Below, piece by piece: positions 1 to 35,363 of a stretch of 35,363 bases of DNA (position 1 is its first letter; every line of letters starts with the position of its first letter). The notes beneath the pieces were generated by a model. The model ran no database searches. It was not told the DNA's origin and saw only the letters and a program-made list of their open reading frames with translations. Source of the DNA: a virus. The stretch lies in UHGV virus genome UHGV-0299546, one strand, 5' to 3'. The position numbers and the translations under genes were made by a program.

Positions 1-173
1 CTGCACCTCCTTAAGTTATACAAAGTATAACTCACGGTGCTACAGGCAACGTTTTACCCCTGCGCATTTGTGAACGCCAGCAGAGTTTTTTATGCGTTAA
101 TAGATATGGAAAGCGGCTCGGAGAGAAAAGCAAAAGGTGAGGGAATTACAAAACAGAATGCGAGTCGTCTCGC

Positions 174-211
174 AAAAAACAACGCCACCCGAAGGTGACA
201 TGAAGGTGGCC
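174..211 (-). terminator. Hairpin (GCCACC...GGTGGC) followed by a T-run on the minus strand, downstream of int; overlaps the candidate att core
   Basis: Inverted repeat 184-189/205-210; A-run 174-179 on plus strand = U-tract on the minus-strand transcript. Confidence 0.4.
183..197. repeat. Left copy of 15-bp direct repeat CGCCACCCGAAGGTG (right copy 35245-35259); candidate attL core
   Basis: Exact 15-mer found at both window ends, about 100 bp from the int stop codon. Confidence 0.35.
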
Positions 212-290
212 GAACATACCGGCCTCCCTTTGATATATCAATTAGTTACATTAATATACATAGTCTTAAGTCGGCTTATTTAGTCCTATT

Positions 291-1286
291 TTATGGGCAA
301 TATCTGGACAACTCAGCCACAGGATTAAAACGCACAGCATCCTGCAAATAATCCGGTGCAAAATGGGCATAGGTCATCGTCTGCTGAATAGTGCTATGTC
401 CAAGTATTCTCTGCAAAGTGATGATATTCCCACCATTAATCATGAAGTGAGTGGCAAAGGTATGCCGTAAAACATGTATCGACTGCCCTTCAGGAAGATC
501 GGGCCTCACCTTTCTGATAGCCGTTCTGACAGCAGAATAACTTGGATAAATTAAACGACCAGTGGCCTTTGTTTTAATCATGCACTCCAGTTCTGACGAT
601 ATAGGTATAACGCGACGCTTCCCATTTTTGGTTTCCATAAAAATGACTTTGCCGCTAATAACATGCTCCCCCTTGATATTTGCAACTTCACTCCATCTTC
701 CACCTGTTGCCAGACACAACAAGACGGCTTTTAATTCATCACCAGATAACAACTCCAGTAATCGTGGAATATCTTCATGATACAAATAAGCCATTTCAGG
801 CTGTTTGATATTAAGTTTTTTCACATCATGAAACGGATTAGCCCCAGAATATTCCTCTGCGTCAATTAGTTTTGTGAAAAAACCACTCATCATTGCGCAA
901 TAACGATTAACCGTGGATTGTTTTATTCCGCGGTTAAGCAACAATAACCGATAATTAATTATGTTTTTACGAGTAAGTTGATCACTGCGTGTAACATTAA
1001 TACTTTCAAGATCACTAATGACCGCAGCAATACGCACTCGCTCCATCGCACCGTAAGGATGATTTTTACCGTGATACAACCACCAACAATCCAGCAGCTC
1101 CCTCAGCGAGCGCCGTTCTGTTGGCTTATCAACCCAGCCTTTGTCGTGGTAATGCTGCAATACATGACGCTCATACAAAACAGCCTCACCACGAGTATCA
1201 AATCGCCGCCTGAATCTCTTTCCTTCTGATCCAGCTGGCCGCACGTCCACACAAAATTTGCCATTAGCGAGCTTCTTAATCGACAT
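291..1286 (-). CDS. int: Phage integrase, tyrosine recombinase (P2 Int-like)
   Basis: Translation resembles P2 Int along its length (C-terminal HxLRHTFATHFMINGG...TLQRILGH...YAHFAP block). Start moved to ATG at 1286 (MSIKKL...), which has a GGAGG RBS 10 nt upstream; the ORF-track start at 1322 has none. Confidence 0.93.
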   Translation of the reverse strand: MSIKKLANGKFCVDVRPAGSEGKRFRRRFDTRGEAVLYERHVLQHYHDKGWVDKPTERRSLRELLDCWWLYHGKNHPYGAMERVRIAAVISDLESINVTRSDQLTRKNIINYRLLLLNRGIKQSTVNRYCAMMSGFFTKLIDAEEYSGANPFHDVKKLNIKQPEMAYLYHEDIPRLLELLSGDELKAVLLCLATGGRWSEVANIKGEHVISGKVIFMETKNGKRRVIPISSELECMIKTKATGRLIYPSYSAVRTAIRKVRPDLPEGQSIHVLRHTFATHFMINGGNIITLQRILGHSTIQQTMTYAHFAPDYLQDAVRFNPVAELSRYCP

Positions 1287-1352: not shown

Positions 1353-1646
1353 TTAACCAGTTTTCTTGCCGGAGCGGGATAATTCCGCTTCGTTTTGCCC
1401 AATGTGTGCGAGAGCCGGTACAACCTGCCCGGCCTTAGGTTCAACTTCATCAAACAAAAACCAGTCGCGATATTTAGAAAATCTTGGGTGCTTGAAAAGC
1501 TTGATAGTGATCTCAAGGCCAGGAAGGTTACGACCATACTCATAACTGGTCAGAGCAGAATAAGAAATCCCAATCATATCAGCGAATTCCCGCTGAGTGA
1601 GATCTTCAGATTTACGCATGACGCGAATTTTTTGAGGAATGTCCAT
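1353..1646 (-). CDS. C: Immunity repressor C (P2 C-like)
   Basis: 98 aa from ATG at 1646 (MDIPQKIRVMRKSE...); resembles P2 C along its length, including the C-terminal PALAHIGQNE...SGKKTG; lies between int and cox as in P2. Confidence 0.85.
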   Translation of the reverse strand: MDIPQKIRVMRKSEDLTQREFADMIGISYSALTSYEYGRNLPGLEITIKLFKHPRFSKYRDWFLFDEVEPKAGQVVPALAHIGQNEAELSRSGKKTG

Positions 1647-1760: not shown

Positions 1761-2186
1761 ATGCAAGAAAGCACTCAAAACGCGCCTGAGTCACTTTGCG
1801 GAACACGATGCGATCACCTGTCAGAAATGCCAGAAGGTGAGCATCAAAAAACAGGACGCAAAGCACGTGAACGTGAAGAAATTCGACTTTCAGAAAATCC
1901 CTCGCATCTCCTGTCAAAAGAAGGATTTGCGATGTATATCGGAAAGACCGTTGATGCCATCGTAAGCATGGCAAAAGCAGGAAAGCTACCTGCGGTGTAT
2001 ATGGCGGACCCTCTCAAGCCAGGCGGAAACGCTGAACTCTACATCAACAGAAAAGCGTGGGATGAAGCATGCGATCGCCTCATCGAAAACGCACCTCAGG
2101 AATGGCACGACTGGGAAAACCGTCTGTTTTTGTTTAAGCCAACAAGTGGCAGACGAAACAGAAACATCAGCGGTAAAGCAGCATAA
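1761..2186 (+). CDS. cox: Cox-like excisionase / early transcriptional regulator
   Basis: Segment FAMYIGKTVDAIVSMAKAGKLPAVYMADP...ELYINRKAW resembles P2 Cox; GGAGGA RBS at 1749-1754 before ATG 1761. Start is uncertain (in-frame ATGs also at 1722, 1827, 1932). Confidence 0.6.
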   Translation: MQESTQNAPESLCGTRCDHLSEMPEGEHQKTGRKAREREEIRLSENPSHLLSKEGFAMYIGKTVDAIVSMAKAGKLPAVYMADPLKPGGNAELYINRKAWDEACDRLIENAPQEWHDWENRLFLFKPTSGRRNRNISGKAA

Positions 2187-5070: not shown

Positions 5071-5190
5071 GTAACCACTATGTACACACAAAAAAACCGC
5101 TTGCCATGCCGCAATCAGTCAGGTTACATTTCCGCTGCACCTCATAAAACGGGTGCCGGGATTTCCACCCCGCTGACAACTACAGCGCAC

Positions 5191-5210
5191 AACCGCGCCA
5201 GCGGTTTTTT
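5191..5210 (+). terminator. Candidate intrinsic terminator
   Basis: 6-bp stem AACCGC/GCGGTT with GCCA loop (5191-5206) followed by T7 (5204-5210). Confidence 0.4.
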
Positions 5211-5229
5211 TGTGCGTACTGTATCGCCA

Positions 5230-5390
5230 CGTCTTTTTCGCACACGAATTATGGTGGGGCGTACGGGGCCGACTTCGGTCGGGCCGGGTTCTGTAGTTGC
5301 CGGTTGTGGAAACCCTGTACGTCTCACCACCCCGAGTTTTCCACCTCTGGATGGTGAGTTTTCAAAACTTGCAACTACAGAGGCCACACC
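5230..5390 (+). other. GC-rich structured non-coding region (candidate sRNA or cis-regulatory leader)
   Basis: Hairpin GGCCGAC-TTCG-GTCGGGCC at 5265-5285 (UUCG tetraloop); inverted repeats CTCACCA/TGGTGAG (5323-5329 / 5351-5357) and CTGTAGTTGC/GCAACTACAG (5291-5300 / 5371-5380), the latter adjoining the RBS of the 5391 ORF. Confidence 0.3.
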
Positions 5391-5621
5391 ATGGCAAACC
5401 GCAAACAGCACCGCGCTATCGCGGAGCGTCGTCACATCCAGACTGAAATCAACCGCAGACTTTTCCGCGCATCACGCGTCGCGCAAATCATGCACATCAA
5501 TATGCTGCATGAGCGCAGCCACGCACTATCAAACATCTATTCCGCCGCTGTTTTCAGCTATCTGGCGGATGATCTGCACGAGCTTCAACAGCTCATCCAG
5601 CAGCAAAACAAACTCCATTAA
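5391..5621 (+). CDS. Hypothetical small helical protein
   Basis: 76-aa ORF with AGAGG RBS; composition looks protein-like, unlike the overlapping 205-aa frame. Confidence 0.5.
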   Translation: MANRKQHRAIAERRHIQTEINRRLFRASRVAQIMHINMLHERSHALSNIYSAAVFSYLADDLHELQQLIQQQNKLH

Positions 5622-6065: not shown

Positions 6066-8831
6066 ATGACGGCAGAGTACATCAGGGACTGGCAACAACC
6101 GCGCCACGCAGTGGGGCGTGAAGGAACGGGGATCCCCGCTCCTGAATCCGCGCTTTCCTCCTGGCTGGATGCCTACCGGGCAGAGAACGAGCGCCGCCAG
6201 GAAATGGCTGATGCGGCGTTCTCCGCCACGCCGCTGGGCAACCTGATTAATAAAAGCCTGGACGCACAGGAAAAACAGGACAAAACCATCACACTGGCAG
6301 GAGACGCCAGAAAACAGGCACGCGGCGCGGTGGATGAAGCCATGGCCTCGCTGCGCCTGCTGCCGTCCTATCTGCGCGATCCGCTTATTCGCCACCTCTC
6401 CTTCCTTCGCAAAAAACAGGAAGCCGATCGCCGGAAAGGCAAAAAGAGCTGGCAGGCGGAACGCTATGCACGCGGAACCCTGCGCAAAATATTCGAACGT
6501 CTGGATCGCACTGACGGACGCTGGCTGACACCGGGTTATCGCTCCCTTGCCGGACGCGAACGCCTGGACGATTTGCTTTACCTGCCGCAGCTCAACAAAC
6601 ACCAGATACAGACGCTGGCCACCATGACGGCGGCGATGTTCAGCAGCACCTTCGAAAAGCTCTGCGATGGCTTTGGCGCGACTGATGGCGAGCTGACCAT
6701 GGATGTAACACTGAAGGCGTATCAGATGCTGGCCCGCATGGCGTTACACCTGCACGCTATGCCTCCACATTATGACGCTCTGACAACAGACAAAGACCGG
6801 AGGAACGAACCGGACACGGAGCTGCTGCCGGGCGCAATCCTTCGCCTGACCTGTGCGGAATGGTGGAAACGCAAACTGTGGCTGTTACGTTGCGAGTGGA
6901 GAGAAGAACAACTCCGCGCCGCCTGTCTGGTTTCCAGAAAAACATCGCCCTATCTGAGTCAGGACGCATTAAGTGAATTTCGCGCACAGCGCGAGAAAAC
7001 ACGCGATTTCCTGAAAAGTTTCATGCTGGAAAATGAAGACGGGTTCACGATTGATCTCGAGACGGTGTATTACGCGGGAGTAAGTAACCCGGTCCACCGT
7101 AAGGCAGAAATGATGGCCACCATGAAAGGGCTGGAACTTCTGGCCGAAGCCCGTGGCGACAAAGCGGTGTTTCTGACTGTCACCTGCCCGTCAAAATACC
7201 ACGCAACAACGGAGAACGGTCATCCGAACCCCAAATGGAACGGGGCCACCATGCGCGACTCCAGCGATTACCTGGTTAACACGTTTTTTGCGGCGGTCCG
7301 CAAAAAACTGAACCGCGACGGTCTGCGCTGGTATGGCATCCGCACGGTGGAGCCTCACCATGACGGCACCGTGCACTGGCATATGATGGTCTTTGCACAC
7401 CCGGACGAGATTGAAACCATCGTGTCCCACGTCTGCGATATTGCCATTCAGGAAGACCGCCACGAGCTGGGCGATGACATAACTCCGCGTTTTAAGGCGG
7501 AGTACGTAGACGGCTCAAAAGGCACGCCAACCAGCTACATCGCCACCTACATCGGAAAGAACCTGGACAGCCGCGCCGTGGATGGCATCGACCCGAAAAC
7601 GGGCAAGCCACGCATTGACCACGAAACAGGTAAATCAATGGCCGAGAGCGTGGAGCGCGCCATCGGCTGGGCGCGCCTTCACCGGGTCCGCCAGTTCCAG
7701 TTCTTTGGCATTCCCTCCCGTCAGGTGTGGCGTGAACTCCGCCGCCTTGCCAGCCAGATGGCACGCAACCCGGAAGGCCCGCAACGGCTGAAGGATGACG
7801 CAATGGATGCGGTTCTTGCTGCCGCTGATGCCGGGTGTTTTGCCACCTACATTGAAAAACAGGGTGGCGTACTTGTTCCGCGCAAGGACTACCTGATTCG
7901 CACCGCCTACGACCTCGCAGATGAGCTGAACGATTACGGCGAACAAAGCGTACAGATTTACGGGATCTGGTCGCCACTCATCGGGGAATCCTCCCGTGTG
8001 TGCACGCATCCGGATAACTGGAAGCTGGTAAGACGCAAACCGGAAGCGGAAGACAGCGCCCGCGAAAATGGTTTTGACCTTCAGGGCGGCCCTGCCGCCC
8101 CTTGGACTCGTGGCAATAACTGTCCCCGTGTACAGGAAACGGACAACAACGGGACAGAACAGCAGGAAGAACGGCCAGCACTGTGGCCGCAGCTTCCTGA
8201 CGGCGTTGATGTGGATGAATGGATGCGCTCACTGAAACGGCACGAACGCCGGGCGCTGATGCGTTCGCTTCGTGACAAACAGGCAAAAAACAGCAGTGAT
8301 GAAATGCAGAGCTGGACACAGAGCCGCAAACAGCAGCGGCCTTTGCCTGATAACCACGAATTACTCGCTAAAGAATGGCGGGAATCTGCCGAATCTCTCG
8401 GCCTGCATATCGGTGAACAGCAGATGCAGCACCTGTTACGAGGCGGCAGTCTGTACGTTGACGGCAGCATCATTGCACCGCAGGGATTTGAAATTGTACG
8501 CAAACCAGATACCCGACCGGACAGCCGAATCACGCAGCTCTGGCAGCGCCTGAGCCGTAATCACGGCGTAAACAGCACGGAAATCCGCCATAACCCGGTT
8601 TCCAGCTATCTGAAACAGCTCGAGGCATCAGACCCTGAAGCCGCTGCACGCCTGGCATCCACAATTCAGCAGGACCAGAACACCATGAAAACTCCCGTTA
8701 CCGTGCTTTCTGACATGCTGCGCGCCATCCGTGACGCAGAGCACGCACAGAGAATCAATGAAACCACTGAACGCGCACGTCACAAGGCGGGTCTGTTGCA
8801 GGACAAAGGCAATAGCGAGAAGAAAAAATAA
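6066..8831 (+). CDS. A: Replication initiation protein gpA (rolling-circle HUH endonuclease)
   Basis: 921 aa; HUH-type motif TVHWHMMVF and paired catalytic tyrosines in YIATYIGK, typical of the P2 A family. Confidence 0.9.
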   Translation: MTAEYIRDWQQPRHAVGREGTGIPAPESALSSWLDAYRAENERRQEMADAAFSATPLGNLINKSLDAQEKQDKTITLAGDARKQARGAVDEAMASLRLLPSYLRDPLIRHLSFLRKKQEADRRKGKKSWQAERYARGTLRKIFERLDRTDGRWLTPGYRSLAGRERLDDLLYLPQLNKHQIQTLATMTAAMFSSTFEKLCDGFGATDGELTMDVTLKAYQMLARMALHLHAMPPHYDALTTDKDRRNEPDTELLPGAILRLTCAEWWKRKLWLLRCEWREEQLRAACLVSRKTSPYLSQDALSEFRAQREKTRDFLKSFMLENEDGFTIDLETVYYAGVSNPVHRKAEMMATMKGLELLAEARGDKAVFLTVTCPSKYHATTENGHPNPKWNGATMRDSSDYLVNTFFAAVRKKLNRDGLRWYGIRTVEPHHDGTVHWHMMVFAHPDEIETIVSHVCDIAIQEDRHELGDDITPRFKAEYVDGSKGTPTSYIATYIGKNLDSRAVDGIDPKTGKPRIDHETGKSMAESVERAIGWARLHRVRQFQFFGIPSRQVWRELRRLASQMARNPEGPQRLKDDAMDAVLAAADAGCFATYIEKQGGVLVPRKDYLIRTAYDLADELNDYGEQSVQIYGIWSPLIGESSRVCTHPDNWKLVRRKPEAEDSARENGFDLQGGPAAPWTRGNNCPRVQETDNNGTEQQEERPALWPQLPDGVDVDEWMRSLKRHERRALMRSLRDKQAKNSSDEMQSWTQSRKQQRPLPDNHELLAKEWRESAESLGLHIGEQQMQHLLRGGSLYVDGSIIAPQGFEIVRKPDTRPDSRITQLWQRLSRNHGVNSTEIRHNPVSSYLKQLEASDPEAAARLASTIQQDQNTMKTPVTVLSDMLRAIRDAEHAQRINETTERARHKAGLLQDKGNSEKKK

Positions 8832-9011: not shown

Positions 9012-10133
9012 ATGGGCGACTTAGGTGGTATTCAGTCAGATTTAGCCCAACTAGTTAGACTGGTAATAACTGAACAGTATGATGACGTTCGGTTATATGT
9101 CGCTCGCTTGGTGCGTAAATATCGGGAAACTATGCCTGCTCTATCCGAGCAGCTTGATCTTTATCTACGAAATAAACCGCAAAAGCCTGCACAAAGCCTG
9201 CGTAAGGTTACCGCACCAAAACAAGCGCTGCCTCAAACCATGCCTGTGGACGAGGAGTCAAGGCTTACCTTGCTTAAAGCACCAAATGAAAAGATTGTGA
9301 GCAAACCTCTACTGTCCAGTCAGATAGAAGACTCACTGGATCAAATTATTCTTGAGCGGAAGCACATCGATCGCCTCAAGACTCTCGGCTTACAACCAAC
9401 ACGCTCTGCCATTTTTGTTGGCCCTCCGGGTGTAGGTAAAACACTTACGGCAAGCTGGTTGGCTCAGAAATTAGGGGTTCCTTTTTACGTTCTTGATTTA
9501 ACGGCAGTAATGAGCAGCTATCTGGGCAAAAGCGGAAATAACCTTCGGGCAGCTCTAGATTTTGCGAAGAAAGGGCCGTGCGTTCTTCTGTTAGATGAAA
9601 TTGATTCAATCGCCAAAAAGAGAAGTGATGATTCTGATGTTGGAGAATTAAAAAGACTTGTTACCGTGATACTCCAGGAGGTTGACGAATGGCCGTCTTC
9701 TAGTTTGCTACTTGCTGCAACTAACTTCGCTGAGTTGATTGATCCAGCACTATGGAGACGTTTTGATTTAGTGCTCAATTTTGAGAAGCCAGATAGCGAA
9801 AGTATTAAAGAAGCAATTAAACGCTTTTCAGGTCCCGACTACGCGATTTTTGCACGTTGGATAGATCTACTGGCTATTATGTTCAAAAATGAATCTTTTA
9901 GTAATATTGAGCGTTCTATCAACAAATTCCGACGTTCGGTCGCTTTAGGTATTTCCTCAGATGAAGAGTTGATTGGGTCGTTCATTAAAGATGGTTTATC
10001 AGAATTAGACAGGAATGAACGTAAAGAAATTGCAGTTACTCTAAAAAGAAATTCTAAATTATCCCAGCATGCCATATCAGACTTAACCGGAGTCAGTAGG
10101 GATACAATTAGAAAATACAGTCAAAAAATGTAA
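9012..10133 (+). CDS. AAA+ ATPase with C-terminal HTH-like tail (IetA-like?); first gene of hotspot cargo
   Basis: Walker A GPPGVGKT (nt 9420-9443), Walker B VLLLDEID, sensor AATN; AT-rich relative to flanking phage genes; AAGAGG RBS. Confidence 0.85.
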   Translation: MGDLGGIQSDLAQLVRLVITEQYDDVRLYVARLVRKYRETMPALSEQLDLYLRNKPQKPAQSLRKVTAPKQALPQTMPVDEESRLTLLKAPNEKIVSKPLLSSQIEDSLDQIILERKHIDRLKTLGLQPTRSAIFVGPPGVGKTLTASWLAQKLGVPFYVLDLTAVMSSYLGKSGNNLRAALDFAKKGPCVLLLDEIDSIAKKRSDDSDVGELKRLVTVILQEVDEWPSSSLLLAATNFAELIDPALWRRFDLVLNFEKPDSESIKEAIKRFSGPDYAIFARWIDLLAIMFKNESFSNIERSINKFRRSVALGISSDEELIGSFIKDGLSELDRNERKEIAVTLKRNSKLSQHAISDLTGVSRDTIRKYSQKM

Positions 10134-10156
10134 TACAGCATAGATAAGGAGTATGT

Positions 10157-12382
10157 ATGGCGAAAACTAATTTTCTGATTGGACGCGGCGAATTATTAAC
10201 CAGCGATATTCCTGGTCCTAAAAGAGTGCCCGGAAAAGCTGAGGTTTATTCTCTTTACGAATCGAAACAACGTTTATTGCCGCAAATTGCATCTACTATA
10301 GAAAATTTTGATGATTTACCCAGTCAGGCATGTCCTTATGATTATGCTGTGGCTAAGTTGACGTTGAATCCGAGCTATATTGCACGCTCTTTTTTTCCTG
10401 CAAAAATGCTTAAGTCTACCGGGTTAACGTCTATTGGCAGCAGGACGGTAAAAATTACGCCTCAAAGCTGGAAGCGAAAAGTTACTGTGTCAGAAGTAAC
10501 TACGACACAAATGTTTGTTGCTGGTAAAAGAGAATCCTTCAAAGAGTTACCTCATTGGGTGTCAGGACTCAAAGAGTTTTCTGACGAAGCGATTGATTTT
10601 GCACGCATAGAACGGTTCGATGCCTATTTACCCGAAGAGCGTATTATTACCATTGGTGAGCAGGATTCTTCGTATTTTGAGGTTGGTGTTCATTTACTGC
10701 CAGATAATGAACAAGACTTGGTTCAGCAACAATTTGTTCAGTTTGCATCAAATTTGAACATCAAAGTACATACTTCATTAGCTTTTACCGCTGGTACATT
10801 ATGGTTCGTGCCAATCCAGGCCGATAGAATTACTATTAGTAAGCTTGCGAAATTTACATTTGTACGAGTCATAAGACCGGTTCCAAGATTGCGTGGGATT
10901 AGACCAATACAAAGGAACTACGGTCCTTTAGCTCAGTGTAAATTGCCTGCTGAGGGCCCCGTATCTTCAGAAATAAAAGTTGCGATTCTTGATGGTGGTT
11001 TACCATCAGAGCACGCTATATCGCCATGGTTAAAATCCTATAGAGTTTTGGACGATCATGCAGAGGATGATCCAGACGGTTTAGAGCATGGTTTAGCTGT
11101 GTCTTCAGCCTTTTTATTTGGACCAATAAGTAATAAATCGGAAGCGAAAAGACCATACTCTTATATTGATAACTTAAGAGTTTTGGACAACAAGACCTGC
11201 CAAGAAGATCCGCTGGAACTATATCGAACTTTGGGCTTTATTGAAGAGGTATTGTTGTCTCGCCAGTATCAGTTTATCAATCTAAGTTTAGGTCCAGACC
11301 TACCAATTGAAGATACGGAAGTTCATGCATGGACTTCCGTTATTGATGATTTGTTAAGTGATGGTGAAACATTAATGACTGTTGCTGTTGGCAACAATGG
11401 AGAAATGGATCGCAAGTCTGGTAATGCAAGAATTCAAGTACCAGCCGATTGCGTTAATGCTCTTGCTGTTGGTGCTTGTGATACAGTTAATGATACGGAA
11501 TGGAAACGAGCACCATATAGCGCCATTGGGCCAGGCAGAAGTCCTGGCGTGATGAAACCGGATTTAGTTGCGTTTGGTGGTGACACAGACGAGTACTTTC
11601 ATGTTTTAGGTAAAGGTAAGAAGCCTGTAATCATACCCCAGCTAGGAACAAGCTTTGCCTCTCCTTACGCCTTACGAGCAGCTGTTGGTGTTCGGGCAAT
11701 TTTAGGGAACGATTTGAGCCTACTAGCAATCAAAGCTTTGTTAATTCATGCGTCAAAACAGCTTGATCATCCTTGTACAGAAGTTGGCTGGGGAAAACTT
11801 CCTGAAGACTTGAACGACATTATAGTCAGCCCTGATGGTGTTGCCCGTATCGTCTACCAAGGTGAATTGAAACCAGGAAAATACTTACGCGCTCCTCTTC
11901 CAATACCTGAAGGTGGCTTGAAAGGTAGAATAAACTTAGCGGCAACTTTCTGTTATGCAACAACCACTGATCCACAAGACCCAGCTTCCTATACAAAAGC
12001 TGGTTTGGAAGTGACATTCCGGCCAAATGATTCAAAAATCAAAGACGGAAAACAAAATGCTGAAACCAAGGGATTCTTTGAACTGGCCAAATATTCAACT
12101 GAAAGTGAGCGACGTTCTGACATGGGCAAATGGGAGACCGTCTTACATAATTCGAAGAACATGCTAGGTTCAACTCTAAAAAATCCTGTATTTGACATTC
12201 ATTATAACGCTCGTGAGGCCGGTGCAAGCATAGCCAGCCATAAGGCAGAAAAAATCAAGTATGCTCTTATAATTACCATTAAGGCATCAAAGCACCAAGA
12301 CCTGTATAACGAAATTTTACGTACTTATAATCAGGTGCTCGTGCCAATTCAACCGCAAACATCAATTCCTATTCGTTCGTAA
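10157..12382 (+). CDS. Subtilisin-like serine protease, peptidase S8 family, with ~265-aa N-terminal domain of unknown function (IetS-like?)
   Basis: Catalytic triad motifs in D-H-S order: VAILD279GG (nt 10991-10993), EH311GLAVSS, GTS499FASP (nt 11651-11653); oxyanion VGNNGE; AAGGAG RBS; 23 bp after the ATPase stop. Confidence 0.88.
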   Translation: MAKTNFLIGRGELLTSDIPGPKRVPGKAEVYSLYESKQRLLPQIASTIENFDDLPSQACPYDYAVAKLTLNPSYIARSFFPAKMLKSTGLTSIGSRTVKITPQSWKRKVTVSEVTTTQMFVAGKRESFKELPHWVSGLKEFSDEAIDFARIERFDAYLPEERIITIGEQDSSYFEVGVHLLPDNEQDLVQQQFVQFASNLNIKVHTSLAFTAGTLWFVPIQADRITISKLAKFTFVRVIRPVPRLRGIRPIQRNYGPLAQCKLPAEGPVSSEIKVAILDGGLPSEHAISPWLKSYRVLDDHAEDDPDGLEHGLAVSSAFLFGPISNKSEAKRPYSYIDNLRVLDNKTCQEDPLELYRTLGFIEEVLLSRQYQFINLSLGPDLPIEDTEVHAWTSVIDDLLSDGETLMTVAVGNNGEMDRKSGNARIQVPADCVNALAVGACDTVNDTEWKRAPYSAIGPGRSPGVMKPDLVAFGGDTDEYFHVLGKGKKPVIIPQLGTSFASPYALRAAVGVRAILGNDLSLLAIKALLIHASKQLDHPCTEVGWGKLPEDLNDIIVSPDGVARIVYQGELKPGKYLRAPLPIPEGGLKGRINLAATFCYATTTDPQDPASYTKAGLEVTFRPNDSKIKDGKQNAETKGFFELAKYSTESERRSDMGKWETVLHNSKNMLGSTLKNPVFDIHYNAREAGASIASHKAEKIKYALIITIKASKHQDLYNEILRTYNQVLVPIQPQTSIPIRS

Positions 12383-12875: not shown

Positions 12876-13922
12876 TCAGGATGTGGGCTGGGTATCTAAC
12901 AGTGCGTAAGGGTTAAAGCGGATCACCTCTTCGCCAAGCCAGTCATTGATGTGCTTCATGGCCTCCATGACGGGCATCAGCTCGTTAATTGCGTAAACCC
13001 GCGCGGCCTTCTCCACATCACCAAACGCACTTTTTTCGCCCGGCATCGCCCCCATCAGTTGCGGCGGAACGCGGTGCGCAGCCAGCACATCATCACGGGA
13101 TGCCGCCTTAACATTCATGAACTCATCCTTTGCGGTGATCTGCTGGAACGGCAAAATTTGCACCCCCTCTTTGCCCCCGTTGGGCGCATGAATGAGCACG
13201 TTTTTAAACGCACCACCACCACGTGCCCCCTGTAGCGTTTCTTTCAGGGAGTCCATGCTTTCGCGGTTTACCTGCGCTGCACCGATGTAGATGATGCACC
13301 CGGCGTGGGATCCGTTGTCGTAGTACAGTTTTCTGAACATGTCCGCCGAATGAGAAAGGCTGGCCGAGAGTAATGCGCCAAGATATTCCGGCATGCCGTA
13401 GATTTCCTGGTTAATATCCGGATTCATCAGGTGGCACACTTTGCCAGGACGAAACTGGAACGCGTCCTTGCCATCCTGCACATACCACCATGATTCAAGA
13501 TCGCTTCCGCGTCGCATGTATTTCGCCAGTGCGTGCCGTAATTTAAGCGGTTCGCCGAGCATATTGCTCCGAAGCTCAAGGAATGCGTTACCGAACACAA
13601 ACCAGTCCAGCGCCAGCGCCGAGAAATCCTGCCGGGAAAGCAGCGGGTGCGGGATGTAGCAACCGAGTAATACATTGCGCTTAAAGTAAAGCGCAGACTG
13701 ATGCCAGGACGTTTGCCGGGCAGCTCTTGCCAGACCGTACCAGTCCACCGGGGTTTCATACCACCGCCCGTTATCAGCACAGTACATATTGTCCAGCAGA
13801 TCATGCCCGGTCAGGCGATAAGGACCATCAAATGTGAATGCACTGAGCGATGATTCTTTCCTGAGCGCATCAGCGAGATCAATGCGTGAACTCATGCGCA
13901 CTTTTTTATTTTTTCTGCTCAT
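12876..13922 (-). CDS. Q: Portal protein gpQ
   Basis: 348 aa, P2 Q-like by length and position; start overlaps the P stop (ATGA). Confidence 0.93.
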   Translation of the reverse strand: MSRKNKKVRMSSRIDLADALRKESSLSAFTFDGPYRLTGHDLLDNMYCADNGRWYETPVDWYGLARAARQTSWHQSALYFKRNVLLGCYIPHPLLSRQDFSALALDWFVFGNAFLELRSNMLGEPLKLRHALAKYMRRGSDLESWWYVQDGKDAFQFRPGKVCHLMNPDINQEIYGMPEYLGALLSASLSHSADMFRKLYYDNGSHAGCIIYIGAAQVNRESMDSLKETLQGARGGGAFKNVLIHAPNGGKEGVQILPFQQITAKDEFMNVKAASRDDVLAAHRVPPQLMGAMPGEKSAFGDVEKAARVYAINELMPVMEAMKHINDWLGEEVIRFNPYALLDTQPTS

Positions 13923-26799: not shown

Positions 26800-26808
26800 C
26801 AACAAATT

Positions 26809-26830
26809 AAGGCCCGTACGGGCCTTTTCT
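26809..26830 (+). terminator. Intrinsic terminator after the tail fibre operon
   Basis: AAGGCCCG-TA-CGGGCCTT followed by TTCTT. Confidence 0.6.
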
Positions 26831-26862
26831 TATTCTGGTGGTTCCGGGAATGTTACAGGAAG

Positions 26863-27018
26863 AACCAAATAGCAAGGCTGATCAAAAACGGTCATGACAG
26901 GAAACAACTGGCGATCATTTACGACATCGGCATATCGACGATTTATCGTTATCACCCTGTAGGCGATATACAGGCTGAAGAAACAACCAGGCAGACTCAG
27001 GAAAATGAAAACCGCTAA
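26863..27018 (+). pseudogene. C-terminal fragment of a serine DNA invertase (Hin/Gin/Pin family), no start codon
   Basis: Frame reads ...NQIARLIKNGHDRKQLAIIYDIGISTIYRYHPVGD...*, resembling the HTH domain of Hin; no ATG/GTG/TTG start (the frame opens at the G stop codon) and no catalytic domain. Confidence 0.5.
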
Positions 27019-27035
27019 TCTGACCATTAGCGGTT
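27005..27035. terminator. Bidirectional hairpin between the invertase remnant and the end of U
   Basis: AAACCGCTAAT-CTGACC-ATTAGCGGTTT with T-rich flanks on both strands. Confidence 0.5.
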
Positions 27036-27044
27036 TTGCGTTAA

Positions 27045-27539
27045 TCAAAACAGCCCTTTAACGGAGCTGGCCGCGCTGTTAAGGGATGATGTGACCTTAT
27101 CTTTGAAGCCGGACAGCATATCACTGAACGATGAGGATTGCAGGCGCTCCCGCAAATCCTCATCACAGCGTTCAAGGGTCAGTGAAAATTCTATCTTTTT
27201 CGCCTTACCGTAGCGATCAAACTCGGAGCGGGTCGTATTCGTTTCAGTCAGTACATACATGCCGTAAATCTGCCCGACACCATCAATCAGAGGCCAGGGG
27301 CGTCCTGTATATGCCTGCGTGGTCAGCAACGAAAGCGACACTTCGCCACCTGTAATTTCAGGATAAAGCACACCAGAAAGAACGATGCGATCATCACCTG
27401 CACCGATATACTGCCAGCTTGCTGAACGGTTAACGCGTTCATTTTTCACATGCCGCCAGCTTTTGTTTTGCTGTAACTGCTGATGCGGCAGCGTGCGCAG
27501 CTCAAAAACAAACATGCCGTAGATCATCATCATGACCAT
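27045..27539 (-). CDS. U: Tail protein gpU
   Basis: 164 aa, P2 U-like by position and length; start among a run of Met codons is uncertain. Confidence 0.85.
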   Translation of the reverse strand: MVMMMIYGMFVFELRTLPHQQLQQNKSWRHVKNERVNRSASWQYIGAGDDRIVLSGVLYPEITGGEVSLSLLTTQAYTGRPWPLIDGVGQIYGMYVLTETNTTRSEFDRYGKAKKIEFSLTLERCDEDLRERLQSSSFSDMLSGFKDKVTSSLNSAASSVKGLF

Positions 27540-27545
27540 GACTCC

Positions 27546-30362
27546 TCAATCTTTATCGTAAAAACTGCCACGCCCGGCACGGGCGCGCCGTTCCATTTCT
27601 GCCCTGACCATTTCACCGACCAGTTTCGCCAGTTCGCGGGGATTCTGTGTAACAACGTTATGCAGATGAACATGAATTTCACCGCCAAATCCGGAGGCAA
27701 CAGGCTCCCGGTTACGGGAAGTTGCAGGAACTGATGCCACTGGAGATCGTATGGCCTCTGCCACCGGGCGGGAGCTGGCCGCAACAACAGGGACCAGCGC
27801 CGGAGGCAGCGGAGCCGGAACCACAGGTGTGATATTAATTGCGGGGGCAGGCTTACTGACCTGCGCAATCTTCCGCTCCTGCCACTCCCCACGAACGGCA
27901 AGTGCGCGGGGCAGGTTCTTAAAGACAATATCGCCGGGGCCAATACGTTTTTTCGTCTCATCAACCAGCTTACCTGTGTTATCAGCAATTTTGCTGAGTC
28001 TGCGTAGCGTACCGGTATTGCTGTCTGTGAGCGGTTTATTGTCTTTGGTTTTATCACCTCCGGTGCCATTGCCATTTTCCGCAGACTTCGGCGGATTGAT
28101 TTTCGCAATGTCTCCCTGAAACAGAGCAACCTTGTCCTGAAGAATGGCCGCACGCTGTGCGTCTTCGATTTTCTTTCTCGCCCTTTCCGCTTCATCCGGA
28201 AGCACACCGAGTTTTTCAAGTATCCACGCCAGCGTATCCAGCAACATTTTTGCGGGCGTCAGAACAAGCTGTAACGCACCGCCAAGAACGTTACCGAATA
28301 TCTCGCCAGCACTGGTACATTTATCCAGCGTTTCCTTGCTGGACTCCATCGGTGACAGCAGCGATTTAAACCAGTTAAACACCTGACTTATCCCGCTTCC
28401 GATTGCGTCAAAAACAGGACCAAACCGTTCAAAGGTTTCGCGTAACGGGGCCAGCCGCTCCATAATCCCGCTGAACACCCCGGCATAAAACGCCTTGATG
28501 GGTTCCCAGTATTTCCAGATGAGAACTGCCGCAGCCACAAACGCAGCAGCAATCAATCCGACCGGGCTGAACAGCGCCCCGATAGCGCCCCCCAGTAACG
28601 AAACGGAACCCGTCACCATTCCCCATAGTGCTGGCAGGAGCCTGACAGCATTCATTGATCCGGTCAGGAGAGAAAAACCAAGACGCAACGTGGCCAGCTT
28701 CCCGTGAAGCACTCCAATAACCAGCGACAACGAGCCAACCGTTGCAGTCATTGCCAGCAGCGCACCGCCTGCTATCAGTAACTGGCGCGTCAGTACCGGA
28801 TGGGCCTGTGCCAGCGCCGTCACCTTTGAGACCACCCGCGTGAGCCACTGCGTGACAGAACGCAGCGGACCATCAATCAGATCTGCAATGCGGATACGCA
28901 GCCCTTCCCATGCACTGCCGAGTGATTTCAGGTCGCCATCAAGGTTATTGGCCATAACCTTTGCCGTGCGTTCAGCCTCACCGCGTGCGCCCTCAAGTTC
29001 TTTTCTCAGTTTGGGCAGGGAGCCGTCACCCGCCGCATCAACGAGAGCCATAAACGACGTGAAAGCCTCTTCCCCGGCAATGTCCTTAAAGAACGATACC
29101 CGGTCAACTTCCCCGTATTTACGGGTGGCTTTATAAAGGTCGGCCAGCACATCTTCCATCGGGCGCATTTTGCCGTTCGCATCAGAGACGGACACACCCA
29201 GCTCTTTCAGCGCTTCTGCTGCCGCCTTTGGCGGTGATGCCAGACGAGCCAGGCTGGCACGCATTGCCGTCCCGGCATCACTCCCTCTGATACCCATATT
29301 CGCCAGCACGCCCGCCATCGCTGCGGCCTGCTCCAGCGATATTCCCAGCTTACCCGCCACCGGACCTGCATATTTCATGGTTTCGCCCAGTGCGCGAAGG
29401 TCAGTGTTAGTACGGGTAAACACTGCTGTAAGCGTGTCACCGACCCGGTCCATCTGGTCAGCGGAGAGGCCGAACTGCGTCAGGATATTTGAGCCAATAT
29501 CTGCCGTCTCGCCAAGGTCCATACCGCCAGCCGTTGCCATGCTCAGCACGCCGGGAAGCGCAGCCTGAATGGCCTGCGGTGTGAAGCCAGCCATTGCCAG
29601 AAATGCCTGCCCACTGGCGGCATCGCCTGCGGTGAACTGCGTTTCAGAGCCAAGTTTTAACGCCTGCTCACGCAGCGCCTTAAACTGCGGGCTGTTTTTG
29701 TCGATTCGCGTCAGTGCCTGAACGCGGGACATCTCTTTCCCGAACCCGATCGCAGGCTGCAAAAAACGCCCGGCAGCATAGCTGCCAGCCGCTGTCGCAC
29801 CAATTGCCAGCGCACCACCTGTTTTCAGTTTTCCCGCGGTTTCCTGCGCGCGCGAATACCGCTCACGCGCACGTGTTACACGCGCAAGCGCCTGCCGTTC
29901 GCGTTCAAGCTGGTTGTTGTACTGTTCGGTGCGTCTGATGGCCTGCTGGATGGTGTTATCGCTGCCTGTCAGGGAAATGCCGTGGCGTTTCAGCTCTCCG
30001 CCAAGCTCCCGCATTTTCTGAATTTCCCGTGTACGCGATTCATTCAGGCGTTCAAGCCGGGTGCTTAACTGCTGCATCAGCTTTTGTTGTTTTTCGCTGA
30101 GCACTGTACCCGTGCGTTGTAACTGATTAAGGGCGTTAAGCTGGCGTCGTGCTTTCACGATGCCCGCATCCGCTTTACTGACAGCGTCACGGGCGCGCTC
30201 AAATGAACGCGCCTGACGCTCGAGATTTTTGATCGCCCCCTGCGTTCGCTGGATGGAGTCACCAAACTGCCCCATCAGGCGGCGGGCGTTTTCGGCAGGC
30301 CGGGTCAGCCTGTCAACGGCGCTGAAAGCGACCCGGATATCAAGAGTCTTCATTGTCTGCAT
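27546..30362 (-). CDS. T: Tail tape measure protein gpT
   Basis: ~940 aa, Ala/Gly-rich with coiled-coil N-terminus and hydrophobic central region; start set at ATG 30362 (GTG 30389 or ATG 30353 possible); overlaps the end of E'. Confidence 0.9.
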   Translation of the reverse strand: MQTMKTLDIRVAFSAVDRLTRPAENARRLMGQFGDSIQRTQGAIKNLERQARSFERARDAVSKADAGIVKARRQLNALNQLQRTGTVLSEKQQKLMQQLSTRLERLNESRTREIQKMRELGGELKRHGISLTGSDNTIQQAIRRTEQYNNQLERERQALARVTRARERYSRAQETAGKLKTGGALAIGATAAGSYAAGRFLQPAIGFGKEMSRVQALTRIDKNSPQFKALREQALKLGSETQFTAGDAASGQAFLAMAGFTPQAIQAALPGVLSMATAGGMDLGETADIGSNILTQFGLSADQMDRVGDTLTAVFTRTNTDLRALGETMKYAGPVAGKLGISLEQAAAMAGVLANMGIRGSDAGTAMRASLARLASPPKAAAEALKELGVSVSDANGKMRPMEDVLADLYKATRKYGEVDRVSFFKDIAGEEAFTSFMALVDAAGDGSLPKLRKELEGARGEAERTAKVMANNLDGDLKSLGSAWEGLRIRIADLIDGPLRSVTQWLTRVVSKVTALAQAHPVLTRQLLIAGGALLAMTATVGSLSLVIGVLHGKLATLRLGFSLLTGSMNAVRLLPALWGMVTGSVSLLGGAIGALFSPVGLIAAAFVAAAVLIWKYWEPIKAFYAGVFSGIMERLAPLRETFERFGPVFDAIGSGISQVFNWFKSLLSPMESSKETLDKCTSAGEIFGNVLGGALQLVLTPAKMLLDTLAWILEKLGVLPDEAERARKKIEDAQRAAILQDKVALFQGDIAKINPPKSAENGNGTGGDKTKDNKPLTDSNTGTLRRLSKIADNTGKLVDETKKRIGPGDIVFKNLPRALAVRGEWQERKIAQVSKPAPAINITPVVPAPLPPALVPVVAASSRPVAEAIRSPVASVPATSRNREPVASGFGGEIHVHLHNVVTQNPRELAKLVGEMVRAEMERRARAGRGSFYDKD

Positions 30363-30869
30363 TCCCGCTGCGAAGTGCCGCCCGCTCACGCCAGCTAACC
30401 ACTTCGCCGGGCGTCATCATGAAGATTTCGGCGGGCGACCAGTTAAAAATAACGGCAATATCTGCCACAAAGTCTTCTATGTGCTCAAAGCACACAACCG
30501 TGATCAGGCTTCCGTCGCCTGTTCGTTCTTCCCGCCAGAGTCCGCACCGCTCAAAAAATTTACGGCAACCACACATAACTGAATAAAGTCACAGGATGCC
30601 ATTTTTTTGATCGTCACTTCATCCAGTCGCGGTGATGTCACGCGTGACAGCAGCGTAAACATGGATTCCGCTTTCAGATTCAGCACATCAGACAGCGACA
30701 AATCTCGCAGAGATCCAGCCTGCTCAATAGCTCCGGTGATCTCCACATACGTGATTTTTTCGCCGCTTCGCTCAATTGGTTGGGTAAGTTTTACGCCACG
30801 CTCACTGGTTTCTTTCACAGTGTCAGCAACGACCGTGTTTTCGTTATCGATGTTTTTCGTCTCTTTCAT
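30340..30869 (-). CDS. gpE+E' fusion made by programmed -1 ribosomal frameshift (about 175 aa)
   Basis: The E frame contains the heptamer T_TTT_TTG (minus strand, 30558 to 30552); the -1 frame is open from there to the stop at 30340; same arrangement as lambda G/GT and P2 E/E'. Confidence 0.6.
30504..30869 (-). CDS. E: Tail assembly chaperone gpE
   Basis: VTSPRLDE...FLSG resembles P2 E. Confidence 0.85.
   Translation of the reverse strand: MKETKNIDNENTVVADTVKETSERGVKLTQPIERSGEKITYVEITGAIEQAGSLRDLSLSDVLNLKAESMFTLLSRVTSPRLDEVTIKKMASCDFIQLCVVAVNFLSGADSGGKNEQATEA
30552..30558 (-). other. Slippery heptamer T_TTT_TTG for the E to E' -1 frameshift
   Basis: Hand-translated: zero frame ...V N F L S G..., -1 frame ...F F E R C G L W... 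Confidence 0.6.
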
Positions 30870-30923
30870 CAGGAAACTCCTTTCAGTCAGAGGCGACGCA
30901 CTGCGCCGCCTGCATATTACTTA

Positions 30924-33929: not shown

Positions 33930-34190
33930 ATGTTCCGTTGTCCGCTTTGTGGCGCATCTGCCCGTATCCGCACCAGTCGTCCGGAAAATGATTCAAACAC
34001 CGTGCGGCAAAAGTATTACCAGTGTAACAATCTGGAATGCGGCGTATGCTTCTCAACACTGGAAGCTTTCCATAAATTCACATCAAAACACGCCTCCGGC
34101 GTTCACTCATCAGAAGGTATCCCGTGGCATGATCTGCCAGCTTCACACAGGGGAAACAATCAGATGAGTTTGCCTTTATCTCAGAATTAA
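33930..34190 (+). CDS. ogr: Late transcription activator, Ogr/Delta zinc-finger family
   Basis: MFRCPLCGASARIRTSR...YYQCNNLECGVCF resembles P2 Ogr, including the four Cys ligands. Confidence 0.88.
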   Translation: MFRCPLCGASARIRTSRPENDSNTVRQKYYQCNNLECGVCFSTLEAFHKFTSKHASGVHSSEGIPWHDLPASHRGNNQMSLPLSQN

Positions 34191-34250: not shown

Positions 34251-34463
34251 ATGGTCGGAGGGAATACCCGAAGGCCGGATGTGGAAAGGCCCCGGAAAAC
34301 ATATCTGTTTAACCGAGGCCCTAACCGCATTACCTTGACAAGTGAAAGGTTAGCGCCTCTCCGGAAAAGGAGCAAGTGCTATGTCGCAAAAATCGCTTAC
34401 GGCCATCACGTTCTGCGTGACGGCAATCCTCATCATCTGGATGCTGCACGGTTCGCTGTGTGA
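34251..34463 (+). CDS. mok-like overlapping reading frame (70 aa)
   Basis: ORF starting upstream of, and overlapping, the hok-like gene in another frame, as in hok/mok/sok loci. Confidence 0.35.
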   Translation: MVGGNTRRPDVERPRKTYLFNRGPNRITLTSERLAPLRKRSKCYVAKIAYGHHVLRDGNPHHLDAARFAV

Positions 34464-34521
34464 AATACGGATGAGTTTCTGGGGAGCGGAGTTTGCGGCG
34501 TTCTTACAGTGTAAGCAGTAA
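34381..34521 (+). CDS. hok: Hok/Gef-family type I toxin (46 aa)
   Basis: Hand-translated MSQKSLTAITFCVTAILIIWMLHGSLCEIRMSFWGAEFAAFLQCKQ: transmembrane helix, then SLCEI and AAFLxCK motifs as in HokA; AAGGAG RBS 7 nt upstream. Confidence 0.7.
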   Translation: MSQKSLTAITFCVTAILIIWMLHGSLCEIRMSFWGAEFAAFLQCKQ

Positions 34522-34610
34522 GGAAACCGCGACGGGGGAGCAATCCCCCGTCAATCGGTTGCCAGGGTAAGGTCGATAAGGTACCCTATCTCACAGACAC
34601 GAACAACAAA

Positions 34611-34632
34611 CCCGCAGCGTAAAGACTGCGGG
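34611..34632 (+). terminator. Intrinsic terminator after the hok-like gene
   Basis: CCCGCAG-CGTAAAGA-CTGCGGG followed by a T-rich tract. Confidence 0.55.
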
Positions 34633-34633
34633 T

Positions 34634-34669
<36 letters not shown>

Positions 34670-34674
34670 AACAA

Positions 34675-34698
34675 AATAGTTAATTAAAATTAACTATT
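34675..34698. repeat. Perfect 11-bp inverted repeat AATAGTTAATT-aa-AATTAACTATT
   Basis: Overlaps the stop codon of the minus-strand ORF; AT-rich palindrome. Confidence 0.7.
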
Positions 34699-34971
34699 AT
34701 GCTCTTGTCTCCATTGCCTAACCATTTCATCAGTAACATCACTCGCATAACAAATCACGTTATATCCTCCGCTACGGCTGTACGCACTACGCCCACCGCA
34801 TCGACTTCCATTTCTTGCATGATTATAAGGGCATGCACAATTTCCGGGATAAGATTCAATAGATTCCCTGATTATTTCTTGTTTAATTTGACTGTCAGAT
34901 TTATTAGTCTTTGCGTACCCCAACACAGACACAAAACAAAGACACATCCCAATAAAAATTTTAACTTTCAT
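34690..34971 (-). CDS. Small signal-peptide protein (93 aa), AT-rich moron-like gene
   Basis: ATG 34971 with AGGGAG RBS; N-terminal MKVKIFIGMCLCFVSVLGYA signal-like segment; Cys/Gly-rich mature part. Confidence 0.55.
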   Translation of the reverse strand: MKVKIFIGMCLCFVSVLGYAKTNKSDSQIKQEIIRESIESYPGNCACPYNHARNGSRCGGRSAYSRSGGYNVICYASDVTDEMVRQWRQEHNS

Positions 34972-35243
34972 ATAAAGCTCCCTGTTAAAAACCAGCAATA
35001 AAATTACTACCAAGTAGTAATGGGAATTTCTGGAACAAAGATCACAAAACAAAACAGCTAATATAAAAGCTATATAATTTTTAATTCCTATAGAAAAAGC
35101 CCAACAACCACGCGACGACACCAAGCAGCCATCACCACATAAACAAAGCCCGCATTAAACAGTGCGGGCTTTAAATCGCTATGGCAATAAGTGGACAACA
35201 CAAAAAATAATCCATTATTTTTCATTGTGTTATGCGGATTTTC

Positions 35244-35273
35244 GCGCCACCCGAAGGTGGCGTGCTTTTATTA
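35244..35273 (+). terminator. Hairpin GCGCCACC-CGAA-GGTGGCG followed by a T-rich tract; contains the right copy of the 15-bp repeat (candidate attR core)
   Basis: Stem-loop 35244-35261, then TGCTTTTATTATT. Confidence 0.4.
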
Positions 35274-35363
35274 TTACTTATCCCTGTCTAACCAGTCGCC
35301 GCTTTCAATTAGCTTTAATCCATCGACGGGTCGTTGATAAACGTACATCCATGCACTCCCGTA

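What the first reader, a model, noticed from the sequence alone, without database searches (positions are those of the whole stretch)
183..197. 15-bp direct repeat at both window ends: candidate att core and prophage boundaries
CGCCACCCGAAGGTG occurs at 183-197 (about 100 bp beyond the int stop) and at 35245-35259. Both copies lie within hairpins that resemble terminators. If these are attL and attR, the prophage is about 35.1 kb and includes the hok-like and signal-peptide genes as cargo. The alternative is that both are copies of a hairpin-forming repetitive element unrelated to integration.
Basis: seen in the sequence. Interest (0 to 1): 0.45.

Follow-up and report, generated by a model that had tools for sequence, protein, structure and literature searches.

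The report
Known P88-type prophage attachment sites
The 15-base repeat at both ends of the window marks where a P2-like E. coli prophage of the published P88 type is inserted into the terminator hairpin after the host gene ytfP, so the finding is correct but already known.

Summary
CGCCACCCGAAGGTG occurs exactly twice, at 183-197 and 35245-35259, and no shuffle of the window gave two copies.

Joining window 1-197 to 35260-35363 gives a 301-base sequence that is 100% identical to the uninterrupted chpS-ytfP intergenic region of many E. coli genomes. That region holds a single copy of the 15-mer.

In genomes without the prophage, similarity to the right junction begins exactly at base 35245. About 35 of 5426 complete E. 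coli genomes carry the occupied form.

The integrase (291-1286, minus strand) is 99% identical to that of the inducible coliphage P88 (Xuanwuvirus, Peduoviridae). Its publication gives the attP core as GCCACCCGAAGGTG, which is bases 2-15 of this repeat. The circular P88 GenBank record is opened exactly there.

The reconstructed attP has the layout of P2 attP. It has paired TGGACA-type arm repeats on both sides of the core, and the P' arm overlaps the int stop codon.

The prophage is 35,062 bp and includes the hok and signal-peptide genes. The bacterial site is the bidirectional terminator hairpin 15-29 nt downstream of ytfP. The repetitive-element alternative is rejected. Novelty: already known. 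Interest is low.

The parts
1..182 (.). Host DNA: the chpS-ytfP intergenic region on the chpS side. The chpS start codon lies just outside window base 1, on the - strand.
   Evidence: Identical to the uninterrupted locus of E. coli M217 and others.
183..197 (+). attL core (B-O-P' junction), next to int.
   Evidence: Exact repeat. Host identity runs up to 197, then phage sequence follows. Bases 184-197 equal the published P88 attP core.
182..201 (-). Hybrid terminator-like hairpin at attL: a phage-derived 5' half-stem, the shared loop and 3' half-stem, and the host T run (TGTTTTTTGC). It lies downstream of int.
198..293 (.). P' side of attP between the core and the arm sites. It holds an exact IHF-consensus match, TATCAATTAGTTA, at 236-248. 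It corresponds in position to the Cox-binding stretch of P2 attP.
   Evidence: Consensus scan and collinear alignment to the annotated P2 attP. Protein binding was not tested.
294..312 (+). P' arm-type Int sites: TGGGCAA and TGGACAA, 11 bp apart, directly abutting the int stop codon (291-293).
   Evidence: The same motif occurs in the P arm and in P88. P2-type arm consensus is tgTGGaCa (PMC3448106).
291..1286 (-). int, a tyrosine integrase of 331 aa.
   Evidence: Pfam Int_N and Phage_integrase. 327/331 identical to P88 Int. 46% identical to P2 Int with the catalytic motifs aligned.
1353..1646 (-). C-type immunity repressor (HTH, 97 aa).
   Evidence: Pfam HTH_3. Translation. Annotation of the UPEC132 and P88 homologues.
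1761..2186 (+). cox, the Cox-family excision directionality factor and repressor.
   Evidence: Pfam Phage_Cox, 96.8 bits. Translation.
33930..34190 (+). ogr, the late-gene activator.
   Evidence: Pfam Ogr_Delta.
34381..34521 (+). hok/gef-family toxin gene (46 aa), inside the prophage.
   Evidence: Pfam HOK_GEF, 29.9 bits against a cut-off of 22. Also present in P88.
34690..34971 (-). Cargo gene inside the prophage: a 93-aa cysteine-rich protein with a signal-peptide-like N-terminus. It sits in a slot that varies between lysogens.
   Evidence: ORF. No Pfam family. Other lysogens carry a DUF4177 protein, a BRCT-domain protein or no annotated gene here.
35144..35173 (-). Terminator-like hairpin just outside the P arm.
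   Evidence: A hairpin-forming sequence appears at this position in each cargo variant aligned (read by eye).
35182..35199 (+). P arm-type Int sites: TGGCAA and TGGACAA, 10 bp apart, 63 bp upstream of the core.
   Evidence: Conservation among seven lysogens starts abruptly at this motif.
35245..35259 (+). attR core (P-O-B' junction).
   Evidence: Exact repeat. In prophage-free genomes, homology starts exactly at 35245.
35243..35264 (+). Complete host-type hairpin at attR, with the T run kept on the + strand only.
35274..35363 (-). Host ytfP 3' end, with the stop codon at 35274-35276.
   Evidence: Annotation of the empty locus mapped onto the window.

Best explanation
The two 15-mers are the attL and attR cores of a 35,062-bp P2-like prophage (P88 type, genus Xuanwuvirus). 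It is inserted by its tyrosine integrase into the bidirectional intrinsic-terminator hairpin 15-29 nt downstream of the E. coli gene ytfP, in the ytfP-chpS spacer.

Shown: attB is ...AAAAAACAA CGCCACCCGAAGGTG GCGTGCTTTT.... The attP reconstructed from the window is ...GGATTTTCG CGCCACCCGAAGGTG ACATGAAGGTGGCC.... Recombination within the shared 14-15 bp yields the two hybrid junctions seen in the window.

Inferred, by analogy with P2 Int: Int dimers bind the inverted core half-sites (CGCCACC and GGTGACA or GGTGGCG) and the paired arm repeats (35182-35199 and 294-312). A bending protein such as IHF helps assemble the complex, strands are exchanged across a 6-8 bp overlap inside the core, and Cox directs excision.

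One consequence, shown at sequence level only: the host terminator is split. The stem-loop is duplicated. The T run that served ytfP now follows int at attL. The T run on the opposite strand stays at attR.
For: - The repeat is exact and exceeds chance.
- The joined flanks are 301/301 identical to uninterrupted E. coli loci, and 5198 of 5426 genomes match at least 80% of the joined sequence in one place.
- The empty locus is annotated chpB-chpS | ytfP-tamB and holds one core copy.
- Prophage-free genomes match the attR region from exactly base 35245 onward. 35 genomes have the occupied attR form and 34 the occupied attL form.
- A second lysogen, UPEC132, has the same core at both ends of a similar 35.5-kb prophage although its left host flank differs.
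- The circular record of phage P88 begins at core base 2 and closes onto the homologous P arm. The published P88 attP is GCCACCCGAAGGTG, and P88 was induced as a viable phage (PMC5285337).
- Int is 99% identical to P88 Int and 46% to P2 Int. Cox and a C-type repressor are present.
- The attP region aligns collinearly with the annotated P2 attP: score 113 against 64 +/- 7.6 (maximum 85) for shuffles, with the arm repeats coinciding.
- Among seven lysogens with at least three different neighbouring cargo contents, conservation begins abruptly at the P-arm repeat and runs to the core.
- attB is called as a terminator on both strands.
Against: - No experiment was done on this particular prophage, so activity of its Int and att sites is inferred from P88.
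- The exact cleavage positions within the core are unknown.
- The only exact IHF-consensus match lies on the P' side (236-248), whereas P2 has its IHF site on the P side. The sequence at the P2-equivalent position resembles the P2 IHF region but does not match the consensus.
- The P88 paper gives 14 bp, not 15. The first C is not shared by all lysogens.
Confidence: 0.95

Rival explanations
1. Both copies belong to a dispersed hairpin-forming repetitive element (REP/BIME-like, or a generic terminator motif), and their position near the prophage ends is coincidental.
For: Both copies lie in GC-rich hairpins with T runs. The 15-mer also occurs sporadically in unrelated bacteria, at about the rate a 15-mer would by chance in 596 Gb (my estimate is roughly a thousand).
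Against: The copies sit exactly at the two points where identity to the uninterrupted host locus stops and resumes. The empty locus has one copy, each lysogen has two, and P88 has one. No further copy exists in the 35-kb window even with 2 mismatches. The sequence is the published attP core of a 99%-identical integrase.
Confidence: 0.01
2. The true phage boundary lies between ogr and hok. On this view the hok and signal-peptide genes belong to the host or to a separate islet, and the right-hand 15-mer is not the junction.
For: The segment after hok is variable between strains, which could suggest a separate element.
Against: The empty ytfP-chpS locus contains none of this DNA. Host homology starts at 35245, not at about 34200. 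The P88 virion-derived circular genome includes hok and a downstream gene. The conserved P arm lies to the right of the cargo slot.
Confidence: 0.02
3. The repeats are genuine att scars, but this copy of the prophage is no longer able to excise. It would be a domesticated or defective prophage, so the sites are historical rather than functional.
For: No induction data exist for this strain. One related lysogen (IAL7250) has int and ogr only about 17 kb apart, which indicates a deleted derivative at the same site.
Against: Both cores and both arm repeats are intact. int, cox and C are full-length ORFs, and Int differs from that of the inducible P88 at 4 of 331 residues. The full complement of P2-type late-gene ORFs is present.
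Confidence: 0.12

Closest known systems
Escherichia phage P88 (KP063541 / NC_026014; Xuanwuvirus P88, Peduoviridae) and its 14-bp attP GCCACCCGAAGGTG (Chen et al. 2017, PMC5285337)
   Same: The core is the same: bases 2-15 of the repeat. Int is 99% identical. The P' arm motif is identical and the P arm nearly so. The gene order is the same, including FI-U on the opposite strand to P2, and hok lies before the att site.
   Different: The base before the core is C here and T in P88, so attP-attB identity is 15 bp instead of 14. The cargo differs in two slots. Here IetAS lies between A and Q, and a signal-peptide gene lies after hok. P88 has recombinase and partition-type genes in the first slot and a different small ORF in the second. 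This prophage lacks the invertase and alternative tail-fibre segment.
Bacteriophage P2 Int / attP / Cox site-specific recombination system
   Same: It has a tyrosine integrase 46% identical to P2 Int. int lies next to attP with the P' arm overlapping the 3' end of int. Paired direct arm repeats of the tgTGGaCa type lie on both sides. The P-arm-to-core distance is the same (63 bp). A Cox-family protein and a C repressor are present. Integration is intergenic, not into a tRNA gene (PMC3448106).
   Different: The core sequence is unrelated: P2 has AAAAAATAAGCCCGTGTAAGGGAGATT. The chromosomal site is different. Variable cargo lies between ogr and attP. No experimental footprints exist for this attP.
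Integration of temperate phages into terminator or stem-loop sequences at the 3' ends of genes (general theme; stated from my own knowledge)
   Same: The core coincides with a dyad-symmetric hairpin downstream of a host gene, and the hairpin is rebuilt at the junction next to that gene.
   Different: Here only the stem-loop is rebuilt for ytfP. Its T run moves to attL.

Membership tests
P2-type (Peduoviridae) integrase / att system | Tyrosine recombinase with the catalytic Arg, His-x-x-Arg, His and Tyr motifs | tested here: met
   Pfam Phage_integrase and Int_N. The alignment to P2 Int shows RW(S/G)E, H-x-LRH, LGH and YAHF aligned and conserved.
P2-type (Peduoviridae) integrase / att system | Core sequence identical in attP and attB, deducible from attL and attR | tested here: met
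   15 bp are shared by attL, attR and attB, and 14 bp with the P88 attP.
P2-type (Peduoviridae) integrase / att system | At least two direct arm repeats of the tgTGGaCa type on each side of the core | tested here: met
   TGGCAA/TGGACAA at 35182-35199 and TGGGCAA/TGGACAA at 294-312. They are conserved in P88 and in six other lysogens. The consensus is from PMC3448106. Binding was not tested.
P2-type (Peduoviridae) integrase / att system | Cox-family directionality factor and C-type repressor in a divergent switch next to int | tested here: met
   Phage_Cox at 96.8 bits and HTH_3. The order is int-C on the - strand and cox on the + strand.
P2-type (Peduoviridae) integrase / att system | IHF site between the P arm and the core | tested here: inconclusive
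   The AT-rich stretch 35202-35240 aligns with the P2 IHF region but does not match the consensus within one mismatch. The only exact consensus match is at 236-248, on the P' side.
P88-like phages (Xuanwuvirus) | Near-identical Int, the same att core, and the same genome organisation | tested here: met
   Int is 327/331 identical. The nucleotide match from the core through int is 97.2%. The gene order matches the P88 annotation.
P88-like phages (Xuanwuvirus) | Excision to a circular attP form and production of viable phage | not testable with these tools
   Shown for P88 by induction (PMC5285337). Not testable for this window.
Dispersed repetitive extragenic palindromes (REP/BIME-like) | Many copies per genome, at positions unrelated to the boundaries of mobile elements | tested here: not met
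   The window and lysogen L001 each have two copies, only at the junctions. The empty locus has one copy, and the window has no degenerate copies. A whole-genome count per E. coli strain could not be made.

The most novel reading that the evidence does not exclude
Because integration splits a bidirectional terminator, the 3' end of the C-int transcript depends on the state of the phage. In the prophage, the hybrid hairpin at attL is followed by the host T run, so transcription should terminate there and be insulated from chpSB. In the circular phage, the same hairpin is followed by CGAAAATCC and should be read through. Conversely, ytfP loses its T run in lysogens. This could be a sib-like, position-dependent control of Int expression. 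It could also subtly change ytfP and chpSB expression in lysogens.
Probability: 0.15. Interest if true: 0.3.

Novelty: already known. Interest (0 to 1): 0.08.

Why it matters
The result fixes the prophage boundaries at single-base resolution: 183/197 on the left and 35245/35259 on the right, for a length of 35,062 bp. It therefore assigns the hok toxin gene, the signal-peptide gene and the IetAS defence pair to the phage as cargo.

It also identifies the chromosomal target of P88-type phages as the ytfP terminator upstream of the chpSB toxin-antitoxin operon. I did not find this location stated in the searchable literature. This is useful for annotation and for engineering P88-type phages, but it opens no new question.

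Tried and rejected
1. I scanned the GTDB species-representative genomes for the exact 15-mer, to see whether it is a dispersed repeat and how far attB is conserved. The 80 rows shown are scattered single matches, almost all in unrelated bacteria, as chance predicts for a 15-mer in 596 Gb.

2. I did not attempt a genome-wide count of the 15-mer within one E. coli genome. BLAST cannot seed on 15 bases at a useful E-value, and loci are limited to 50 kb. The junction-exact evidence made the count unnecessary.

3. An Rfam search of the window found nothing at either att site and no Sok RNA next to hok at gathering threshold.

4. A literature search for ytfP together with prophage or P2-like integration sites found no description of this attB location. 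The survey of P2-like integrases (PMC3448106) mentions neither ytfP nor chpS.

5. My first Pfam attempt on hok used coordinates copied from another strain and hit a stop codon. I corrected it using the ORF list.

6. I considered whether the FI-U tail block on the minus strand was a rearrangement peculiar to this prophage. It is shared with P88 and UPEC132, so it is a lineage feature.

Full report
**Observation.** The 15-mer CGCCACCCGAAGGTG occurs on the + strand at 183-197 and 35245-35259 and nowhere else in the window, even with two mismatches. Shuffled windows give 0.12 copies on average, and none of 100 gave two. The repeat finder extends the similarity to 18 of 20 bases, 183-202 against 35245-35264. 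The bases immediately to the left differ between the copies. The left copy ends 93 nt beyond the int stop codon at 291-293. The start-to-start distance is 35,062 bp. Both copies lie in terminator-like hairpins.

**Empty-site test.** I joined window 1-197 to 35260-35363, which removes everything between the repeats and keeps one copy, and searched 5426 complete E. coli genomes.
- Many chromosomes match all 301 bases at 100% identity in a single alignment. 5198 genomes match at least 80% of the sequence in one place.
- In strain M217 the match lies between chpS and ytfP. The chpS start codon abuts window base 1, on the minus strand. The ytfP stop codon maps to window 35274-35276, on the minus strand.
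- A search with the right junction alone (35140-35363) gave the converse result. 35 genomes match across the junction. The other genomes listed match from query base 106 onward, which is window base 35245, the first base of the repeat.
- The left junction is occupied in 34 genomes.
- A four-way alignment shows attL following attB up to the end of the core and attR following attB from the core onward.

**The circular form is on record.** A reconstructed attP (34600-35259 joined to 198-800) matched Escherichia phage P88 (KP063541, a circular record of 35,814 bp; Xuanwuvirus, Peduoviridae) at 97.2% identity. The match starts at record base 1, which corresponds to core base 2.
- The last 70 bases of the P88 record are homologous to window 35176-35244, so P88 closes into the same attP.
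- The P88 paper reports that the phage was induced from E. coli K88. It states that the attP site "was determined as a 14-bp fragment (GCCACCCGAAGGTG)" (PMC5285337).
- That paper is the only one in the searchable library that contains this sequence.

**The recombinase and its site.**
- int (291-1286, minus strand, 331 aa) carries the Int_N and Phage_integrase domains. It is 327/331 identical to P88 Int. It is 46% identical to P2 Int, with the catalytic motifs aligned.
- A C-type HTH repressor (1353-1646, minus strand) and a Cox-family protein (1761-2186, plus strand) form the adjacent switch.
- The attP region has the P2 layout. Paired direct repeats lie 63 bp upstream of the core (TGGCAA and TGGACAA, 35182-35199) and 97 bp downstream of it (TGGGCAA and TGGACAA, 294-312). 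The downstream pair directly abuts the int stop codon.
- P2-type arm sites have the consensus tgTGGaCa (PMC3448106). In the annotated P2 record, the P arm also starts 63 bp before the core and the P' arm overlaps the end of int.
- A global alignment of the two attP regions is collinear. It scores 113, against 64 +/- 7.6 (maximum 85) for shuffled P2 sequence.
- Seven lysogens were aligned. Their annotations next to the att site differ: a signal-peptide protein, a DUF4177 protein, a BRCT-domain protein, or no annotated gene. Sequence conservation begins abruptly at the P-arm repeat and continues to the core. This is what is expected if that block is a functional attP arm.
- In four of the seven lysogens, and in P88, the base before GCCACC is T. 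The universally shared core is therefore 14 bp, and the 15th base here is a lineage variant that matches the host.
- The IHF site is unresolved. The only exact consensus match is at 236-248 on the P' side. The stretch that aligns with the P2 IHF site does not meet the consensus.

**What the bacterial site is.** In the empty locus the core lies in an 8-bp-stem hairpin, ACGCCACC-loop-GGTGGCGT, with T runs on both strands. The scan calls it a terminator in both directions. It lies 15-29 nt after the ytfP stop codon. Integration duplicates the stem-loop but separates the two T runs.
- At attL, on the minus strand, a hybrid hairpin (ATGTCACC/GGTGGCGT, with G-T pairs) is followed by the host TGTTTTTTGC. 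It now lies downstream of int.
- At attR the perfect hairpin keeps only the plus-strand T run.
- In the ytfP sense, the hairpin at attR is followed by CGAAAATCC. The next terminator-like hairpin on that strand is at 35173-35144.
- Whether this changes ytfP, int or chpSB expression is inference only.

**Rivals.**
- Dispersed hairpin repeat: excluded by the base-exact coincidence of the copies with the limits of host homology, and by the copy numbers (one in the empty locus, two in each lysogen, one in P88).
- Boundary between ogr and hok: excluded because the empty site lacks that DNA, host homology starts at 35245, and the P88 genome itself carries hok and a downstream gene.
- Excision competence of this particular copy is untested. 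All parts are intact.

**Comparison and verdict.** This is a member of the P88 lineage of P2-like phages. It uses a P2-type Int, Cox and arm-site system with the published P88 core. The only additions here are the identification of attB as the ytfP bidirectional terminator upstream of chpSB, the arm-site anatomy, and an occupancy of about 0.6% among complete E. coli genomes. The finding is correct but ordinary. Novelty: already known. Interest is low.

Noticed in passing
window 9012-12382 (+): There is a two-gene IetA (AAA ATPase, 373 aa) and IetS (subtilase, 741 aa) anti-phage defence pair (PADLOC E-values 1e-77 and 7e-52). It sits between the replication gene A (6066-8831) and the portal gene (12876-13922), which is the slot where P2 carries tin/old. 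P88 and the UPEC132 prophage carry different genes in this slot.
   Followed up: partly
window 5137-5211 and 5247-5334 (+): Rfam matches above gathering score to the isrK Hfq-binding RNA (63.6 bits) and the C4 antisense RNA (80.5 bits). They lie just upstream of a 76-aa ORF (5391-5621) whose P88 counterpart is annotated 'derepression protein'. This looks like a P1/P7-type antisense immunity module inside a P2-like early region.
   Followed up: no
window 34690-35180, compared with L125-L129: The slot between hok and the P arm is a variable cargo site. Here it holds a 93-aa cysteine-rich protein with a signal peptide and no Pfam family. Other lysogens at the same attB hold a DUF4177 protein (some annotations add a YidD-like gene nearby), a BRCT-domain protein, or no annotated gene. 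Each variant appears to have its own hairpin just before the conserved P arm.
   Followed up: partly
window 34381-34521 (+): A hok/gef-family toxin ORF of 46 aa (Pfam 29.9 bits). No Sok antisense RNA was found by Rfam at gathering threshold.
   Followed up: partly
window 34634-34668: A 9-bp tandem repeat, TTTCTTTTA (three overlapping 17-nt copies in the repeat finder, about four units). It lies immediately after a bidirectional terminator-like hairpin at 34608-34635, downstream of hok.
   Followed up: no
window 27045-32620 (-): The tail genes U, T, E, FII and FI lie on the minus strand, and D and ogr on the plus strand. This is an inversion of the block relative to P2. It is shared with P88 and the UPEC132 prophage, so it is a lineage trait.
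   Followed up: yes
window 26800-27045: This prophage lacks the DNA invertase and the alternative tail-fibre and assembly genes that P88 and the UPEC132 prophage carry between gene G and gene U.
   Followed up: no
L001 (UPEC132) 1-1323, and window 1-49: The host flank to the left of attB is not constant. In UPEC132 the chpSB operon is replaced by licT and a glycoside hydrolase gene, and similarity to the window starts only at window base 50. The attB hairpin itself is conserved. About 680 of the 5426 genomes show no megablast match to the left flank.
   Followed up: partly
NZ_CM130729.1 (IAL7250) 2373177-2391514: In this genome the same int and ogr-hok ends lie only about 17 kb apart at the same attB. 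It appears to be an internally deleted derivative of the prophage.
   Followed up: no
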